In this document: piece after piece, positions 1 through 41,997 of the stretch
How the letters are laid out: each line of letters opens with the position of its first letter
Numbering within the stretch: position 1 is the stretch's first letter
Program-made: the position numbers and the translations under genes
DNA from: Candidatus Saccharimonadota bacterium
Lineage (GTDB): Bacteria; Patescibacteriota; Saccharimonadia; CAILAD01; BJGX01
Assembly: GCA_016191105.1 (NCBI GenBank)
Contig: JACPPH010000009.1
Span: forward strand, 1-46,951
Direction of reading: 5' to 3'
Length of the DNA: 46,951 bases
Notes under the pieces: model-generated
Database searches by the model: none
The model's input: only the letters and a program-made list of their open reading frames with translations
Told to the model about the DNA's origin: nothing

Positions 1-1
1 C

Positions 2-304
2 TGCCAGCTCCAAGGCCAGCTGCCCTTGCCACGGCAGCTGCTAATTAGTGAGCTAGACTGCTGGGCCAACCAACTCACCAGCCTGCCAGAGCTGCCGGCC
101 AGCTTGCAGCGGCTGTACTGCTACTCCAACCAACTCACCAGCCTGCCAGAGCTGCCGGCCAGCTTGCAGCGGCTGTACTGCTACTCCAACCAACTCACCA
201 GCCTGCCAGAGCTGCCGGCCAGCTTGCAGCGGCTAGAATGCCGCCACAACCACCTTGATGCTGCCACCCAAGCTAGGCTACGCCAGCGCGGCTTTAGCTA
301 TTAG
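2..304 (+). CDS. C-terminal part of a leucine-rich-repeat protein (20-residue LPX / IpaH-SspH-YopM-type LRRs); the 5' end lies outside the window
   Basis: The frame is open from the window edge. It contains consecutive units NQLTSLPELPASLQRLYCYS that fit LxxLPxLPxxLxxLxxxxNxL. The stop is TAG at 302-304, and the segment is G+C-rich relative to its neighbours. Confidence 0.75.
   Translation, partial: CQLQGQLPLPRQLLISELDCWANQLTSLPELPASLQRLYCYSNQLTSLPELPASLQRLYCYSNQLTSLPELPASLQRLECRHNHLDAATQARLRQRGFSY
61..240 (+). repeat. Tandem 60-bp repeat, about 3 units, coding for the LRR units
   Basis: Positions 68-120, 128-180 and 188-234 are identical base for base, and 121-180 equals 181-234. This was read directly from the sequence lines. 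Confidence 0.95.
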
Positions 305-866
305 GCAAGTCTTTAGTAGTCTGGGCATACGGTTCGGGGTTTTCCCAAATGTCGTCGTGTTGACCCGCAAACCTGTATACATCCCAGCCATTTTTACTAG
401 CTAACTCTCGCACAGCACTTGAATTCGCAAAGTAGTCTTGATCGTTTTGCAGTAGCACAGTTTTTGGTATATTGAGATTAAAATGGTCTCGATTGGGTTT
501 GTAGGCTCGCCACATTTTTAGATTGTGCTTAGGGCGAGCAAAAAAGTAATATATGTTCCAGTTCATTTTTTTGAGCCATTTTACTGTGCCTTGATCACTT
601 TTGTAGCCCAGAAAGTCGCCTGTGGTCTTTTTTATAAGCCTCCCGGGTAGCTTTCGGCCAGGCCAATGCGGCACGCCACACATGATTGCAACTTCGGCTT
701 TTGAATCAGCGGGTATCACATAGCATCCGCCAGAATGCGTTAAAACCACGTCGGCTTTCTTGGGATCCTTAACTACCTCAAGGGCCTGCTTGCGCAATTC
801 GACCTCTAGCTTGCGGCTATGGCGTGGCCCTTCTGTAAGACCATGAATTATGGCTACCTTTTTCAT
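294..866 (-). CDS. Hypothetical protein, possibly alpha/beta-hydrolase-like
   Basis: The ORF is open, with MKKVAIIHG as the likely start (ATG at 866). An LTHSGGC motif resembles a GxSxG nucleophile elbow. I do not recognise a family. Confidence 0.5.
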   Translation of the reverse strand: MKKVAIIHGLTEGPRHSRKLEVELRKQALEVVKDPKKADVVLTHSGGCYVIPADSKAEVAIMCGVPHWPGRKLPGRLIKKTTGDFLGYKSDQGTVKWLKKMNWNIYYFFARPKHNLKMWRAYKPNRDHFNLNIPKTVLLQNDQDYFANSSAVRELASKNGWDVYRFAGQHDDIWENPEPYAQTTKDLPNS

Positions 867-997
867 ATCACATCTAATTCTACACAAAAGACATTGAAGG
901 GTCGATGAAATAAAAGGCACAATCGAAACTCGAAGCGAGGCGTAGTCAATCTACGGCGAGTAAGACTCGGAGATTGTAACGTGGTAGTTTGCGATCT

Positions 998-1798
998 TTA
1001 AAAGTCGAGCGTTACACTTACCGGGCAGTGATCGGACCCCATAACTTCTGAGTGGATTTCAGCTTTTTTAATATGCGGCACCAAACTTTTACTGGCCAAC
1101 CAGTAATCTATGCGCCACCCCACATTGTTAGCCCTGGCATTGGCCCAGTGAGTCCACCAGCTGTAGTATCCGTTGCCCTTGGTAAATAATCTAAAAGTAT
1201 CTACAAAGCCAGCATCTACAAACTTATCAAAACCCTCGCGCTCTTCGGCGGTAAAGCCCTTTTTGCCCACATTAGGCTTGGGCCGAGCTAGGTCGTCTTC
1301 GGTGTGGGCTACGTTTAGGTCGCCACAAAACAGCACTGGCTTCTTCTTTTCTAGTGCTTTGCAGTATTCCAAAAAGGCCGGGTCCCAGTGTTTGTGTCGC
1401 AGTGGTATGCGACTAAGATCGTCTTTGGCATTGGGCGTGTATACGGTTACGACCGTGAATTTATCGAATTCGGCCGCGATCACTCGCCCTTCGGCGCTGC
1501 TGTCACGATCCTTATCGTCTAATAGGTGATATTTTTTGGCAATGGCTTCGGGAAAGTCATTCATAACCTTAACCGGCTTAAGTTTGGTGAATATGGCTGT
1601 GCCGCTATAGCCCTTCTTTTCGGCCGAATTCCAAAACTCCTCGTAGCCCTTAATATCGATCTCGGCTTGGCCTTGCTGAGCCTTGGTTTCTTGCAAGCAC
1701 AATATGTCGGGTTTGTATTTGTTCACAAACGGCACAAACTCGTCTTTACGAATCACCGCACGAATGCCGTTTACGTTCCAAGAAAATAGTTTAATCAT
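998..1798 (-). CDS. xth: Exodeoxyribonuclease III (AP endonuclease, EEP fold)
   Basis: It starts MIKLFSWNVNGIRA and contains LCLQETK, GDLNVAH and a C-terminal SDHCPV. The ATG at 1798 overlaps the upstream stop as ATGA. Confidence 0.9.
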   Translation of the reverse strand: MIKLFSWNVNGIRAVIRKDEFVPFVNKYKPDILCLQETKAQQGQAEIDIKGYEEFWNSAEKKGYSGTAIFTKLKPVKVMNDFPEAIAKKYHLLDDKDRDSSAEGRVIAAEFDKFTVVTVYTPNAKDDLSRIPLRHKHWDPAFLEYCKALEKKKPVLFCGDLNVAHTEDDLARPKPNVGKKGFTAEEREGFDKFVDAGFVDTFRLFTKGNGYYSWWTHWANARANNVGWRIDYWLASKSLVPHIKKAEIHSEVMGSDHCPVSVTLDF

Positions 1799-2460
1799 TT
1801 TATGCTTTTTAAATTGGCCTGGCGAAGACCCATGGTTGCTAATAGCATTTTTCCTTGCCAAACCGAGTCATCAACAGCTTTGTGGCTAAATTCATCTTTG
1901 GGCCTTAGGTAATCAGGGAGCTTTGATTTAGAAGTTTGCCCCCACGAGTTCAAGTCGAGCTCACCAAATGCCTGAGATGGAATGTCTAGTGGTTTGATTT
2001 CAAAAGGAAATTTTTTACCGACAGTCTCATAATACAGCCAGAGTAAAGAATGATCGTAGCCGGCGTTAAAACCCACAAAAACTAGCCGTTGCTTGTTGTG
2101 CATTTGCTGTAGAGAACTAAGCCATTGGTCTAGCTTTTCAATGACTTCATCTGCTTCTGGCGCATCAGCCATAGCATCTGGATCTAAGCCTACCGACTTG
2201 CAAAATTCTCTATTGCTCGGTATAAACCCCATGCCCTCAACAGGTCTTACATCTGATTCAAATGTGTTGGTTAAGTCTAAACAATCTGCTGCACCAACCT
2301 GTAACAGCGAGCCTTTACCGGCAATTCCGTCTGACTCTAAATCTATTGAGACAAACAGATCGGGGGAGTTCTTAAGAACTTCTAGACCGCTACCCATCAA
2401 AGCCTCAAGTTCATACTTGGGAGCTGGGTTAAGTTCGTTATTGTCTCTAAATTCGCTCAT
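1795..2460 (-). CDS. DEDDh-type 3'-5' exonuclease-like protein
   Basis: Three motifs are present: DLESDG (ExoI), GFNAGYDHSLL (ExoII) and HKAVDD (ExoIII, H-x4-D). Confidence 0.6.
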   Translation of the reverse strand: MSEFRDNNELNPAPKYELEALMGSGLEVLKNSPDLFVSIDLESDGIAGKGSLLQVGAADCLDLTNTFESDVRPVEGMGFIPSNREFCKSVGLDPDAMADAPEADEVIEKLDQWLSSLQQMHNKQRLVFVGFNAGYDHSLLWLYYETVGKKFPFEIKPLDIPSQAFGELDLNSWGQTSKSKLPDYLRPKDEFSHKAVDDSVWQGKMLLATMGLRQANLKSIK

Positions 2461-2476
2461 AGCAGTAATTATAGCA

Positions 2477-2501
2477 GATCCTTCGACAAGCTCAGGATGA
2501 C
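2477..2501. repeat. Short intergenic hairpin element ending in CAGGATGAC
   Basis: The sequence is gatccttcgacaagctcaggatgac (ATCCT/AGGAT stem). It has the same ...CAGGA(A/T)GAC ending as the elements at 20540 and 39219. Confidence 0.5.
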
Positions 2502-2567
2502 GGCACCAGAAACGGCAAAGGCCCCCGACGATGAGGTCGGGTGACCTTCGTCGAGAGCCGTGTGAGA

Positions 2568-41059: not shown

Positions 41060-41081
41060 TGTAGCATAAAAGTAGGATAAT
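41053..41081 (+). promoter_or_regulatory. Near-consensus sigma70-type promoter (TTGACA-17 nt-GATAAT) overlapping the obg start codon
   Basis: TTGACA is at 41053-58 and GATAAT at 41076-81. It drives the GC-rich two-gene islet. Confidence 0.5.
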
Positions 41082-41138
41082 CTGCAAGACTCTAGGGAAC
41101 CGCTCTAGATCCGTTCTTGCCCTTTAGGAGGCAGCAAC

Positions 41139-41609
41139 ATGCAGTCCATAAAGAGAGGCTTCGGGACTGAGGTCAAAGTGCTTCGGTGGGAAGACTTGCC
41201 CTGGATCGACCAGGTAACGCCTGGGAAATTCAGCTGGCTCAAGAGTTTCGGTGGTGAGGACGTGCGAACCGGCCAGTTACTGCCTCTAGGCAGTGATCTG
41301 GTCGCTCTGCTAATGACTACACCACTGGTCATAGCCGTCGACATAACGCAAGACCCCAACAACCTTTCCATAAGGTTCGGGGTCAAGATCGAGGGTCGGG
41401 GTGTCTATACCGCTAAGGACAGTGGCTTTCCATTGATCGAGGACTCGATCGATGAGGCCATCGCGATCGTTGAACTGTTCGGCGAATCTGGTCGGTTGGA
41501 GGCTTACGTCACCGAGAATCCAGCGACATCGGCCGAAAAGTGGGTAGGAGCTTACGCCGCCAGCAACGAGTCCGCTCGGCAAGGGGCTCAAGGATGGCGC
41601 CATGGGTAG
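41139..41609 (+). CDS. Hypothetical protein (156 aa), GC-rich islet
   Basis: TAGGAGG lies 7 nt upstream of the ATG. The codon bias is G+C-rich, and no family is recognised. Confidence 0.6.
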   Translation: MQSIKRGFGTEVKVLRWEDLPWIDQVTPGKFSWLKSFGGEDVRTGQLLPLGSDLVALLMTTPLVIAVDITQDPNNLSIRFGVKIEGRGVYTAKDSGFPLIEDSIDEAIAIVELFGESGRLEAYVTENPATSAEKWVGAYAASNESARQGAQGWRHG

Positions 41610-41865
41610 CACCGAAGTCGGCGACCGCTGGAAGGAGTTCGTGCGCGGATCTCTCGCCCCCATCGTTCGCGATGAGGCGCGTATCTCCGACCCGGAGTCC
41701 ATTCGGCAAGTTCTGACTGGGGCCTTGGCCCCGCTCCGGCGAGCCGTCGAAATCGTGCCCGGCCCCTACCTGGTGGCACCAAGTGTTATCGAGGGTCTAG
41801 TTCGGACCTACATCACAACAGGCTCGATAGACCCGCTCCTCGAGGAGCTCTCACCCCGAGGATGA
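41602..41865 (+). CDS. Hypothetical protein (87 aa), overlapping the previous ORF by 8 nt
   Basis: The ATG at 41602 lies inside CGCCATGGGTAG. The ORF is G+C-rich, and no family is recognised. Confidence 0.5.
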   Translation: MGSTEVGDRWKEFVRGSLAPIVRDEARISDPESIRQVLTGALAPLRRAVEIVPGPYLVAPSVIEGLVRTYITTGSIDPLLEELSPRG

Positions 41866-41908
41866 GCTACAAGCCCACCCAACCCGCCCCCGAAAGGGTT
41901 CGCAACCA

Positions 41909-41937
41909 AGCGAGCCCCTTTGGGGGCTTTCGCGTTT
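41909..41937 (+). terminator. GC-rich hairpin plus GTTTT after the islet genes
   Basis: The sequence is gcgagcccc-tttg-ggggctttcgc, followed by gtttt. Confidence 0.45.
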
Positions 41938-41954
41938 TACCAACTTTTGTAGCC

Positions 41955-41997
41955 AAAAAAGAGCCCCGGACTTTTCGCAAGGGCTCTTTGTTTTTTT
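41955..41997. terminator. Bidirectional terminator (A-run, AGAGCCC/GGGCTCT stem, T-run)
   Basis: The sequence is aaaaaagagccccggacttttcgcaagggctctttgttttttt. It serves the plus-strand islet and the minus-strand LysM-CHAP gene. Confidence 0.6.

What the first reader, a model, noticed from the sequence alone, without database searches (positions are those of the whole stretch)
1..41997. About nine short G+C-rich islets (0.25-1.5 kb, 1-2 genes each) punctuate an AT-richer housekeeping backbone with no visible mobility genes
Seen: the segments 1-304, ~2505-3500, ~7355-7665, ~10060-10500, ~11760-13250, ~18225-19560, ~28100-28335, ~37690-38710 and ~41100-41940 are visibly richer in G+C than their flanks. 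My hand counts of single 60-nt lines give 65% (2941-3000), 70% (18601-18660), 68% (41641-41700) and 55-57% (two purB lines). Backbone lines give 33% (24001-24060), 38% (26401-26460), 40% (9001-9060) and 53% (one purD line), so the contrast is real but not uniform. Most islets bring a GGAGG-type SD and a GC-rich terminal hairpin. Three sit immediately behind AT-rich near-consensus promoters (7251, 10004, 41053). Cys-rich zinc-ribbon-like small proteins are over-represented among their products. I saw no integrase, transposase, inverted terminal repeats or att-like duplications. Inference: these are piecemeal, integrase-independent captures of single transcription units from a high-GC donor. If the genome is an epibiotic CPR bacterium, an actinobacterial host or its phages would be the obvious source.
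Basis: partly seen in the sequence, partly recalled or inferred. Interest (0 to 1): 0.75.

Follow-up and report, generated by a model that had tools for sequence, protein, structure and literature searches.

The report
Actinobacterial-type GC-rich genes in a Saccharibacteria genome
A stretch of genome from a tiny parasitic (Saccharibacteria-type) bacterium is dotted with short G+C-rich genes, and the largest of them (two purine-synthesis enzymes) were taken long ago from high-G+C Actinobacteria, the phylum these parasites live on; this is an ordinary kind of gene transfer, but well documented here.

Summary
The listed segments total 6,977 bp at 59.0% GC, against 46.5% for the rest of 1-41997. 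The 43 backbone genes have GC3 0.479±0.043, while most islet genes have 0.65-0.82. Islet 7 is marginal. Cys134 and the NrdR-like gene are only about 2 SD high.

Three islets are of Actinomycetota type:
- Islets 2 and 6 are the two halves of one split purH. Both are closest to the same 68%-GC MAG.
- Islet 5 is purB, whose named hits are all Actinomycetota.
- Islet 4 matches only zinc-finger modules of actinobacteriophage HNH endonucleases.

Islets 1, 3, 8 and 9 have no traceable donor.

The captures are not all recent or separate. purB, the purH C-half and the small ORF of islet 3 sit at the same positions, still GC-rich, in sister genomes from other samples. Synonymous divergence between those genomes is about 1-2, and dN/dS is 0.10-0.18. 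Islets 4 and 9 are absent from relatives, so they look like later insertions.

Mis-assembly is excluded for islets 2, 3, 5 and 6.

No integrase or flanking repeats were found, but for the old islets that says nothing about mechanism.

Verdict: a real feature, and a new example of a known kind (partly ameliorated horizontal transfer).

The parts
1..304 (+). Islet 1: 3' end of a leucine-rich-repeat protein gene (20-residue LRRs, 60-nt DNA period), GC 0.62, GC3 0.77. The gene runs off the window start.
   Evidence: Pfam LRR_4 E 5e-17. NCBIfam matches only the LRR part of SspH2/SlrP. 60-nt repeats. The Logan unitig breaks at 333, so this junction is the least secure.
2726..3490 (-). Islet 2: PurH N-half (IMP cyclohydrolase/MGS domain, 'PurJ'), 254 aa, GC 0.62, GC3 0.82. 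It carries a 24-aa N-terminal extension and a degenerate, Cys-containing C-terminal tail.
   Evidence: Pfam MGS plus AICARFT positions 1-66. NCBIfam purH positions 1-202. 68-69% identity to residues 2-208 of the full-length PurH P0004, from a 68%-GC MAG.
2568..2729 (-). 53-aa ORF overlapping the purH-N stop codon, GC 0.59. No family match; coding status uncertain.
   Evidence: Called in the Logan assembly. No Pfam or PADLOC hit.
7372..7593 (+). Islet 3: small protein gene (73 aa, GC 0.63). It has its own promoter-like site (7251-7279), an SD (GGGAGG) and a GC-rich terminator hairpin (about 7622-7675).
   Evidence: Positional homologues with conserved W...CR..HP...P motifs occur in L086 (85 aa, GC 0.67) and L172. 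No Rfam family. Sequence read.
10004..10506 (+). Islet 4: self-contained unit. Promoter-like site 10004-10032, ORF 10067-10471 (134 aa, three C-x3-C...C-x2-H zinc-finger modules), and a 14-bp-stem terminator at 10476-10506.
   Evidence: PHROG HNH-endonuclease families E 3e-15. All 18 phage hits are actinobacteriophages. No HNH domain in Pfam. Absent between tgt and the ATPase gene in L004 and L086. Promoter and terminator.
11813..13234 (-). Islet 5: purB (adenylosuccinate lyase), 473 aa, GC 0.57, GC3 0.70.
   Evidence: NCBIfam purB equivalog 364 bits, above its cut-off. 62-66% identity to many Actinomycetota PurB proteins, and every named hit in the top 120 is Actinomycetota. Syntenic and GC-rich in L004, L086 and L171. 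dN/dS 0.16-0.18.
18545..19540 (-). Islet 6: PurH C-half (AICAR formyltransferase, 'PurV'), 331 aa, GC 0.61, GC3 0.72.
   Evidence: Pfam AICARFT positions 62-311, E 8e-82. 76% identity to P0004/L005, 81% to the split homologue in sister L004 at the same position next to trmD. dN/dS 0.10.
28095..28326 (-). Islet 7 (marginal): 51-aa ORF 28171-28326 with an SD, followed by a GC-rich hairpin upstream of leuS.
   Evidence: Sequence. No Rfam family. Does not reach median+0.10 GC in 300-bp windows.
37694..38713 (-). Islet 8: two-gene operon directly 3' of tRNA-Ala(GGC) (38773-38849). It holds a GNAT acetyltransferase (38123-38626 from the SD-preceded ATG, GC3 0.65), an NrdR-type zinc-ribbon protein without ATP-cone (37748-38110), and a terminator with a stem of 11 pairs, 10 of them G-C (37694-37719).
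   Evidence: Pfam Acetyltransf_1 and Zn_ribbon_NrdR. NCBIfam hits all below their cut-offs. tRNA. Sequence and terminator. No repeat of the tRNA 3' end.
41053..41865 (+). Islet 9: promoter-like site 41053-41081 (11/12 matches) and two overlapping ORFs, 41139-41609 (156 aa) and 41602-41865 (87 aa), GC 0.56 and 0.63. They lie on the strand opposite to the flanking obg and LysM-CHAP genes.
   Evidence: No Pfam, PHROG, NCBIfam or PADLOC family. Orphan among 1.84e9 representatives. In six of the eight best-matching loci around obg relatives, LysM-CHAP is 42-256 bp from obg, against 947 bp here.

Best explanation
The window comes from an environmental Saccharibacteria-type (Patescibacteria/CPR) genome of about 47% GC. 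Its GC-rich islets are genes of foreign, high-GC ancestry embedded in a conserved, syntenic backbone.

Shown.
- purB and a complete purH were acquired from Actinomycetota-type, high-GC donors. The purH donor lineage is nearest to a 68%-GC MAG whose closest named relatives are Acidimicrobiia.
- The acquisition predates the divergence of at least three to four sister lineages.
- purH was then split at the interdomain linker into a stand-alone IMP cyclohydrolase gene and a stand-alone AICAR formyltransferase gene. The two now lie 15 kb apart and share a 19-residue duplicated overlap.
- These genes have been kept under purifying selection.

Inferred.
- Together with the backbone-composition purD, purN and purM genes, they contribute steps of purine synthesis.
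- Their GC3 (0.63-0.82, against 0.48 for the backbone) is a residual donor signature that has only partly decayed.
- The smaller islets are a mixed set. Islet 4 (an actinophage-type zinc-finger protein) and islet 9 (two orphan ORFs) are later insertions of complete promoter-ORF-terminator units into intergenic gaps, on the strand opposite to the backbone genes. Islet 8 is a two-gene operon next to a tRNA gene. Islet 3 is an old, fast-evolving, clade-specific small protein.
- How any of this DNA entered, and whether the donors were the physical hosts, is not recoverable from the sequence.
For: - Backbone identity. ProRS relatives are Saccharibacteria/Patescibacteria. CPR-typical gene content is seen.
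- purH donor. The C-half is 76% and the N-half 68% identical to the same full-length PurH (P0004/L005, locus GC 0.68, purH GC3 0.91). The next named relatives are Actinomycetes CSMAG_2939, Microthrixaceae and Ilumatobacteraceae.
- purH split. The split forms cluster together in a neighbour-joining tree among the full-length proteins returned by the search, without bootstrap. The 19-residue overlap is shown.
- purB donor. All named hits among the top 120 are Actinomycetota, at 62-66% identity. The four CPR PurB sequences are monophyletic in 70% of NJ bootstraps.
- Age. Sister loci from independent samples (SRR21686417, SRR31719924, ERR12320366, ERZ15185960) carry the same genes at the same positions with the same GC excess.
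- Selection. dN/dS is 0.10-0.18.
- Late insertions. Islet 4 is absent in two sisters. Islet 9 is absent in more distant relatives.
- Islet 4 affinity. It matches only actinophage HNH-endonuclease zinc fingers.
- Assembly. A second assembly of the reads is 100% identical across every islet junction except that of islet 1.
- Composition.
- Amelioration. A two-state fit to purB 4-fold sites allows ongoing decay from an ancestor with GC4 of about 0.94.
- Context. All known Saccharimonadales hosts are Actinobacteriota (PMC12592800).
Against: - No donor could be found for islets 1, 3, 8 and 9, and their tetranucleotide pattern resembles neither the backbone nor Actinomycetota.
- The islet that looks youngest by synteny (islet 4) has the weakest GC3 excess (0.56). 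That is the opposite of a simple amelioration clock, unless its donor was only moderately GC-rich.
- With dS of about 1-2 between sisters, simple decay requires the ancestor at the radiation to have been almost unameliorated. The best fit actually prefers a stationary GC-rich state (equilibrium about 0.75-0.8), though the difference is not significant (2ΔlnL=3.0).
- The direction of transfer for purB rests on composition and on patchy distribution in CPR, not on a rooted tree.
- The taxonomy of the closest PurH donor MAG (GCA_016185305.1) was not available and is inferred from its nearest named relatives.
Confidence: 0.65

Rival explanations
1. The GC-richness is actively maintained rather than left over. 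These loci sit at their own GC-rich equilibrium. Possible causes are recurrent recombination with, or replacement by, host-derived high-GC alleles, GC-biased gene conversion at recombination-prone sites, or selection on the mRNA.
For: - Four lineages with aa distances of 0.46-0.60 all keep purB GC3 at 0.63-0.74, and none approaches its backbone.
- The free fit of the 4-fold site patterns gives an equilibrium of about 0.79.
- The small ORF of islet 3 is GC-rich in three lineages despite only 25-32% aa identity.
- In L087, a different set of GC-rich genes occupies the slot where the window has purH-N.
Against: - The fit cannot reject plain decay towards 0.48 (2ΔlnL=3.0, about 99 sites).
- The CPR PurB and PurH-C sequences are monophyletic and syntenic, which argues against repeated replacement.
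- No mechanism is visible in the sequence.
Confidence: 0.2
2. Some of the small islets (3, 7, 8, 9) are native, lineage-specific genes. Their composition would reflect their amino-acid content or local constraints, not transfer.
For: - No homologues outside the clade. u156 is an orphan and small73 occurs only in sister loci.
- No mobility signatures.
- The non-pur islets have no tetranucleotide affinity to Actinomycetota.
Against: - GC3, which is largely independent of the protein sequence, is 0.65-0.69, or 4-5 SD above the backbone.
- Islet 9 interrupts an otherwise tight LysM-CHAP-obg junction.
- These units carry their own promoter, SD and terminator, and use SD-led starts, unlike the many leaderless-type backbone starts.
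Confidence: 0.25
3. The islets are assembly or binning chimeras that join actinobacterial reads to a CPR contig.
For: - The window is a metagenome contig.
- The unitig graph branches at window 333, next to islet 1, and inside tRNA-Ala next to islet 8.
Against: - The Logan assembly is 100% identical across the borders of islets 2-9.
- The same GC-rich genes sit in the same backbone context in four other samples.
- The islet genes are only 62-76% identical to any Actinomycetota protein and have intermediate GC.
- The split purH carries a leader conserved within the clade.
Confidence: 0.03
4. The short GC-rich segments without a called gene (islets 3 and 7) are structured non-coding RNA genes.
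For: - High GC and strong hairpins.
- The gene caller used for the Logan contigs called no ORF in either segment.
Against: - No Rfam match even at E<=10 that makes sense.
- Islet 3 has an SD-preceded ORF whose protein motifs are conserved in two other lineages while the DNA is diverged.
Confidence: 0.07

Closest known systems
Horizontally acquired genes undergoing amelioration (compositionally atypical 'alien' genes, in the sense of Lawrence and Ochman; own knowledge)
   Same: They show atypical GC, GC3, amino-acid and oligonucleotide composition against a homogeneous backbone. Their best relatives lie in another phylum whose base composition fits the deviation. Their GC is intermediate between donor and recipient.
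   Different: The main examples are old, shared by lineages with near-saturated synonymous divergence, yet still 15-25 GC3 points above the backbone. They are single genes scattered over 40 kb rather than one island.
Classical integrase-mediated genomic islands at tRNA genes
   Same: Islet 8 lies directly 3' of tRNA-Ala and has atypical composition. Islets 4 and 9 are present or absent among relatives.
   Different: There is no integrase, no direct repeat of the tRNA end and no flanking repeats of any kind. The sizes of 0.3-1.5 kb are far below typical islands.
Lateral gene transfer into CPR/Saccharibacteria reported in the literature (cyo operon in soil Saccharibacteria, PMC8407418; nrdD, ldh and CRISPR loci in oral Saccharibacteria, PMC7427843)
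   Same: Metabolic genes in a reduced CPR genome have non-CPR closest relatives.
   Different: Here the source is the host phylum itself. PMC7427843 states that TM7x shows no predominance of Actinomyces-like genes and no strong sign of HGT from its host. The genes concerned here are purine-synthesis genes.
Stand-alone purV (AICARFT) / purJ (IMPCH) genes replacing purH (PMC6486802)
   Same: The two PurH domains are encoded by separate genes that are not adjacent, as in about 5% of the bacterial genomes surveyed there.
   Different: This split arose inside a purH of Actinomycetota type after transfer into a CPR lineage. A duplicated 19-residue overlap still marks the break.

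Membership tests
Horizontally transferred (xenologous) gene | Closest relatives lie in a different lineage from that of the surrounding genome | tested here: met
   Met for purB, purH-N and purH-C, which are Actinomycetota-type, while the backbone ProRS is Saccharibacteria/Patescibacteria. Met weakly for Cys134, which has actinophage hits only, at 27-43% identity. No verdict for islets 1, 3, 8 and 9.
Horizontally transferred (xenologous) gene | Composition deviates from the recipient genome in the direction of the donor | tested here: met
   GC3 is 0.65-0.82 against 0.479±0.043 for the backbone. Donor-type loci have GC 0.63-0.73.
Horizontally transferred (xenologous) gene | A rooted phylogeny nests the recipient clade inside the donor group | tested here: inconclusive
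   Only NJ trees on the top 120 hits were built. The CPR clades are monophyletic (70% bootstrap for PurB) and surrounded by donor-type sequences, but the trees are unrooted and lack other phyla.
Classical genomic island | Integrase or another recombinase gene | tested here: not met
   No such Pfam family occurs in any called gene of the window.
Classical genomic island | Flanking direct repeats (att) or terminal inverted repeats | tested here: not met
   No repeat pair brackets any islet.
Classical genomic island | Insertion next to a tRNA gene | tested here: inconclusive
   Only islet 8 abuts tRNA-Ala(GGC). The other islets do not.
Classical genomic island | Variable presence among close relatives | tested here: inconclusive
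   Islets 4 and 9 are absent from relatives. Islets 3, 5 and 6 are conserved. Islets 1, 2, 7 and 8 were not testable with the loci obtained.
purV/purJ split PurH | Separate genes for the AICARFT and IMPCH domains, each complete | tested here: met
   NCBIfam purH profile positions 5-202 fall in one gene and 197-510 in the other.
purV/purJ split PurH | No full-length purH elsewhere in the genome | not testable with these tools
   Only 47 kb of the genome is available.
HNH endonuclease (actinophage type), for the 134-aa protein of islet 4 | HNH nuclease catalytic domain | tested here: not met
   Only the N-terminal zinc-finger part of the PHROG profiles is matched. Pfam finds no HNH domain.
NrdR transcriptional repressor, for the 120-aa protein of islet 8 | Zinc ribbon plus ATP-cone, scoring above the family cut-off | tested here: not met
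   Only the zinc ribbon matches. TIGR00244 scores 29.9 bits against a cut-off of 124.65.
IpaH/SspH-type effector, for the LRR protein of islet 1 | C-terminal NEL E3 ligase domain after the LRRs | tested here: not met
   The ORF ends about 15 residues after the last repeat. Only the LRR region of SspH2/SlrP is matched, far below the cut-off. The N-terminus lies outside the window.
AAC(6') aminoglycoside acetyltransferase, for the GNAT of islet 8 | Score above the NCBIfam cut-off | tested here: not met
   41 bits against a cut-off of 140. Generic GNAT only.

The most novel reading that the evidence does not exclude
An environmental Saccharibacteria clade has drawn repeatedly on the gene pool of its host phylum (Actinomycetota and their phages). 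Through this it rebuilt part of de novo purine synthesis, which CPR bacteria are thought to lack. The acquired loci would be held at a GC-rich equilibrium by continuing exchange with host DNA or by biased conversion. If so, the islets would be a lasting, readable record of host association rather than a fading scar.
Probability: 0.15. Interest if true: 0.65.

Novelty: new member of a known kind. Interest (0 to 1): 0.42.

Why it matters
Saccharibacteria live on Actinomycetota, yet the best-studied strain shows little genetic trace of that association (PMC7427843). Here a clade of environmental relatives carries Actinomycetota-type purB and purH that have been retained and reshaped over a long time. 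This gives a concrete case of gene flow from the host phylum. It also hints that some members make part of their own purines.

Such compositional islets could also be used as markers to guess hosts of uncultured CPR bacteria.

Practically, the result shows that GC-deviant segments in CPR bins need not be contamination, so composition-based bin 'cleaning' could remove genuine genes.

Tried and rejected
- Structured RNA genes as the cause of the GC peaks. Rfam at gathering thresholds found only two tRNAs. Permissive scans of islets 3 and 7 found nothing credible.
- Split intein in purH. The tail of the N-half and the head of the C-half are too short and lack intein motifs. Alignment shows a plain fission with a 19-aa overlap.
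- Remnants of donor flanking genes beside the pur islets. tblastx and blastn against 170 loci gave only compositional noise.
- Viral origin of islets 4, 8 and 9. Three scans of IMG/VR found no relatives. Plasmid and phage BLAST for the GNAT and NrdR-like proteins gave only weak generic hits.
- Defence-system annotation. No PADLOC hits for nine islet proteins.
- Structure of the 156-aa orphan. Single-sequence AlphaFold gave pLDDT 36.5, which is unusable, so no fold search was run.
- Polarising substitutions by parsimony to test for ongoing amelioration. Abandoned because near-saturation biases it. It was replaced by a two-state star-tree likelihood, which proved inconclusive.
- Co-transfer of purN with purH. 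PurN is only 44% identical to the donor-type PurN and has backbone composition.
- Origin of purD. PDB comparison gave no taxonomic resolution.
- The accession SRR12113392 was not found in the literature library.

Full report
**1. Observation.**

The window is 46,951 bp at 48.6% GC.

- The nine segments total 6,977 bp at 0.590 GC. The rest of 1-41997 is at 0.465.
- Random placement of segments of the same sizes never exceeded a mean of 0.549 in 20,000 trials, against 0.593 observed.
- I took gene coordinates from an independent gene call on identical Logan contigs. The 43 backbone genes are very uniform: GC 0.471±0.030 and GC3 0.479±0.043.
- The islet genes form a separate group with GC3 0.65-0.82. 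Two weaker cases, Cys134 and the NrdR-like gene, are at 0.55-0.56.
- Islet proteins are poor in FYMINK residues.
- Their tetranucleotide pattern correlates with the backbone at 0.30, against 0.65±0.06 for random backbone samples.
- The window has 14.7% of its length in windows at least 0.10 above the median. The median is 0% and the maximum 9.8% for 46 loci around obg relatives taken from metagenomes.
- Islet 7 is marginal. Two unlisted GC-rich patches exist inside obg and inside a 536-aa gene.

**2. Not RNA genes and not an artefact.**

Rfam and ARAGORN find only tRNA-Gln and tRNA-Ala.

The Logan assembly of run SRR12113392 yields three contigs that are 100% identical to window 333-15213, 15184-38828 and 38799-46840. 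Every islet border except that of islet 1 is therefore reproduced by a second assembler. The unitig breaks fall at 333, inside a DEAD-box helicase gene, and inside tRNA-Ala.

More importantly, loci from other samples show the same arrangement (section 5).

**3. Who is the host genome.**

The backbone ProRS has its best named relatives in Candidatus Saccharibacteria and the Patescibacteria group, at 63% identity. The gene content also fits: FemAB, DUF5663, LysM-CHAP, S16-KH-TrmD. So does the 47% GC, which matches the G1 Saccharibacteria range quoted in PMC7427843.

**4. What the islets encode.**

- Islet 1: the end of an LRR protein of the 20-residue bacterial type.
- Islets 2 and 6: the two halves of PurH. 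The gene at 2726-3490 has the MGS/IMP-cyclohydrolase domain (purH profile positions 5-202). The gene at 18545-19540 has the AICAR formyltransferase domain (positions 197-510).
- Islet 3: an SD-preceded 73-aa ORF with its own promoter-like site and terminator.
- Islet 4: a 134-aa protein with three C-x3-C...C-x2-H modules.
- Islet 5: purB.
- Islet 7: a 51-aa ORF plus a hairpin upstream of leuS.
- Islet 8: a GNAT gene and an NrdR-type zinc-ribbon gene without ATP-cone, immediately 3' of tRNA-Ala.
- Islet 9: two overlapping ORFs with no family.

**5. Origin and age.**

*purH.*
- Among 5.8 billion proteins, the PurH C-half is 81% identical to another split form (P0001) and 72-76% identical to full-length PurH proteins.
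- The closest full-length protein, P0004, lies in a MAG locus of 68% GC, where its own GC3 is 0.91.
- Among GTDB species representatives, the nearest named genomes are an Actinomycetes MAG, Microthrixaceae and Ilumatobacteraceae. All have GC 0.63-0.73.
- The N-half has the same best relative, L005, at 68%.
- P0004 residues 2-208 align to the N-half gene and residues 190-502 to the C-half gene. One actinobacterial-type purH was therefore split, and a 19-residue duplicated overlap remains. The three split C-halves share a new N-terminal leader and cluster together.
- Stand-alone AICARFT and IMPCH genes are known as purV and purJ (PMC6486802). This is an independent instance.

*purB.*
- PurB is 62-66% identical to PurB of many Actinomycetota (Streptomyces, Amycolatopsis, Prauserella, Nocardioidaceae and others). 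No other phylum appears among the named hits.
- It is 64-65% identical to the PurB of sister CPR loci.
- The four CPR sequences group together in 70% of NJ bootstraps. Their pairwise distances imply a short shared stem followed by long separate branches.

*Sister loci.*
- L004 (SRR21686417) has S16-KH-trmD-...-purH-C-...-purD-purB-...-tgt-ATPase. There, purH-C has GC 0.60 and purB 0.57, in a 0.45-0.53 background.
- L086 (SRR31719924) has purD-purB-tgt-ATPase-[85-aa ORF]-proS. There, purB has GC 0.61 and the small ORF 0.67.
- L172 has a GC-rich patch and a third homologue of the small ORF at the same place. The motifs W...CR..HP...P are conserved.
- L171 has a GC-rich purD-purB pair in a 0.40-0.48 background.

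*Divergence and selection.*
- Between these genomes, 4-fold sites differ at 0.52-0.69, against composition-limited maxima of 0.69-0.75. That corresponds to dS of roughly 1-2.
- dN/dS is 0.16-0.18 for purB and 0.10 for purH-C.
- Islets 3, 5 and 6 are therefore old, functional and persistently GC-rich. Islet 2 follows by implication.

*Later insertions.*
- tgt directly abuts the ATPase gene in L004 and L086. Islet 4 is thus a 0.54-kb insertion specific to the window's lineage.
- In six of the eight best-matching loci around obg relatives, LysM-CHAP lies 42-256 bp from obg, against 947 bp here. Islet 9 is therefore also an insertion.
- Islet 4's protein hits only actinobacteriophage HNH-endonuclease zinc-finger regions. 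All 18 records are from phages of Mycobacterium, Rhodococcus, Arthrobacter, Microbacterium or Brevibacterium (PHROG). It lacks the nuclease domain.
- The 156-aa protein of islet 9 has no real relative among 1.84 billion representatives.

**6. Amelioration or maintenance?**

If GC3 decays towards 0.48, a dS of 1-2 between sisters requires the common ancestor to have been almost donor-like.

I fitted a two-state star-tree model to 99 conserved 4-fold sites of purB in four lineages. The best-fitting equilibrium is about 0.79. An equilibrium of 0.48 with an ancestral GC4 of 0.94 is not rejected (2ΔlnL=3.0).

I therefore keep 'incompletely ameliorated transfer' as the main reading and 'actively maintained GC' as a live rival.

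The simple clock is also strained by islet 4. It is the youngest by synteny but the least GC3-rich.

**7. Mobility.**

No integrase or transposase domain is present. No flanking direct or inverted repeats are present. No PADLOC system is present. Only islet 8 is next to a tRNA gene, and the tRNA end is not duplicated.

For the old islets this absence says nothing. For islets 4 and 9 it fits illegitimate or homology-free insertion of small promoter-ORF-terminator cassettes, but it does not demonstrate it.

All three cassettes with their own promoter-like site (islets 3, 4 and 9) lie on the + strand, opposite to almost all backbone genes.

Islet genes tend to use SD-led starts (7/11). In contrast, 12 of 41 backbone starts, and none of the islet starts, have a -10-like hexamer 6-10 nt upstream of the start codon. 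That is a leaderless-type arrangement, about ten times the random rate.

**8. Comparison with what is known.**

Lateral transfer into CPR bacteria is documented: the cyo operon in PMC8407418, and nrdD, ldh and CRISPR loci in PMC7427843. Partial purine pathways in Saccharibacteria have been noted, with 6 of 12 enzymes in PMC7786006. On the other hand, Saccharimonadia are generally described as unable to make nucleotides, and all their known hosts are Actinobacteriota (PMC12592800). TM7x was reported to lack a clear signal of host-derived genes (PMC7427843).

The present case is a well-supported example of genes from the host phylum in an environmental Saccharibacteria clade. The kind is known and the instance is new.

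**9. Verdict.**

Novelty: a new member of a known kind. Interest is moderate, at 0.42.

Confidence that the pur islets are ancient Actinomycetota-derived genes is high, about 0.85. Confidence that all nine islets share that explanation is low, about 0.3.

Noticed in passing
window 2726-3490 (-) and 18545-19540 (-): purH is split into stand-alone IMPCH and AICARFT genes that lie 15 kb apart. Both retain residues 190-208 of the full-length relative. The copy in the N-half is degenerate and is followed by a Cys-containing tail. This looks like fission by duplication and degeneration. The split is shared by at least two other lineages (P0001, P0002).
   Followed up: yes
window 25195-28074 (-): The leucyl-tRNA synthetase (959 aa) carries a NUDIX hydrolase domain inserted after the editing domain (Pfam PF00293, residues 381-510, E 2e-13, above the gathering score).
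   Followed up: partly
window 32806-32858 and 46606-46658: A 53-nt element (89% identical copies) holds the perfect 12-nt palindrome CCGTAGCTACGG. It sits in the leaders of a Mur-ligase gene and of a 536-aa gene that heads a cell-wall cluster (RuvX, YceG, LysM-CHAP). No Rfam family matches. It may be a shared operator or leader RNA.
   Followed up: partly
window, 12 gene starts (for example 7178 proS, 20316 trmD, 41050 obg, 36927 purM, 28074 leuS, 9965 ATPase): A -10-like hexamer (at least 5/6 matches to TATAAT) ends 6-10 nt before the start codon at 12 of 52 gene starts, against 2.3% at random positions. All 12 are backbone genes without an SD. This suggests widespread leaderless mRNAs in this genome, whereas islet genes are SD-led.
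   Followed up: partly
L171:1553-5282 (ERR12320366): In another CPR-like genome with a backbone GC of 0.40-0.48, purD, purB and an adjacent TPR gene are all GC-rich (0.61, 0.60 and 0.57). Its PurD is only 47% identical to the window's PurD, which has backbone composition. purD may therefore have a different history in the two lineages.
   Followed up: partly
L087:6880-8777 (ERZ27258557) and L173 (GCA_964397085.1): In L087, the slot between DUF1761 and the Exo_endo_phos gene, where the window has murB and purH-N, holds three other GC-rich genes (GC3 0.65-0.71). L173, a more distant relative, also mixes genes with GC3 from 0.30 to 0.65. Compositional mosaicism may be common in this group, and some slots may be insertion hot spots.
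   Followed up: no
window 333, 15184-15213, 38799-38828: The k=31 Logan unitigs of the same run end at these points. One is 29 nt after the LRR gene and one is inside tRNA-Ala beside islet 8. This indicates graph branches, from repeats or strain variants, next to islets 1 and 8.
   Followed up: partly
window 10067-10471 and 7372-7593: The gene caller used for the Logan contigs called neither the 134-aa zinc-finger ORF nor the 73-aa ORF, although both have an SD and a terminator, and the latter is conserved in sister loci. Atypical composition may cause such genes to be missed in CPR annotations.
   Followed up: no
window 40551-40850 and 46051-46400: Two further GC-rich patches (0.58 and 0.60 in 300-bp windows) lie inside otherwise ordinary genes (obg and a 536-aa gene).
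   Followed up: no
window 18227-18631 (+): A 134-aa ORF was called on the strand opposite to the 3' end of purH-C, overlapping it by 87 nt. It has no family and is probably a spurious ORF created by the high GC of the islet.
   Followed up: no
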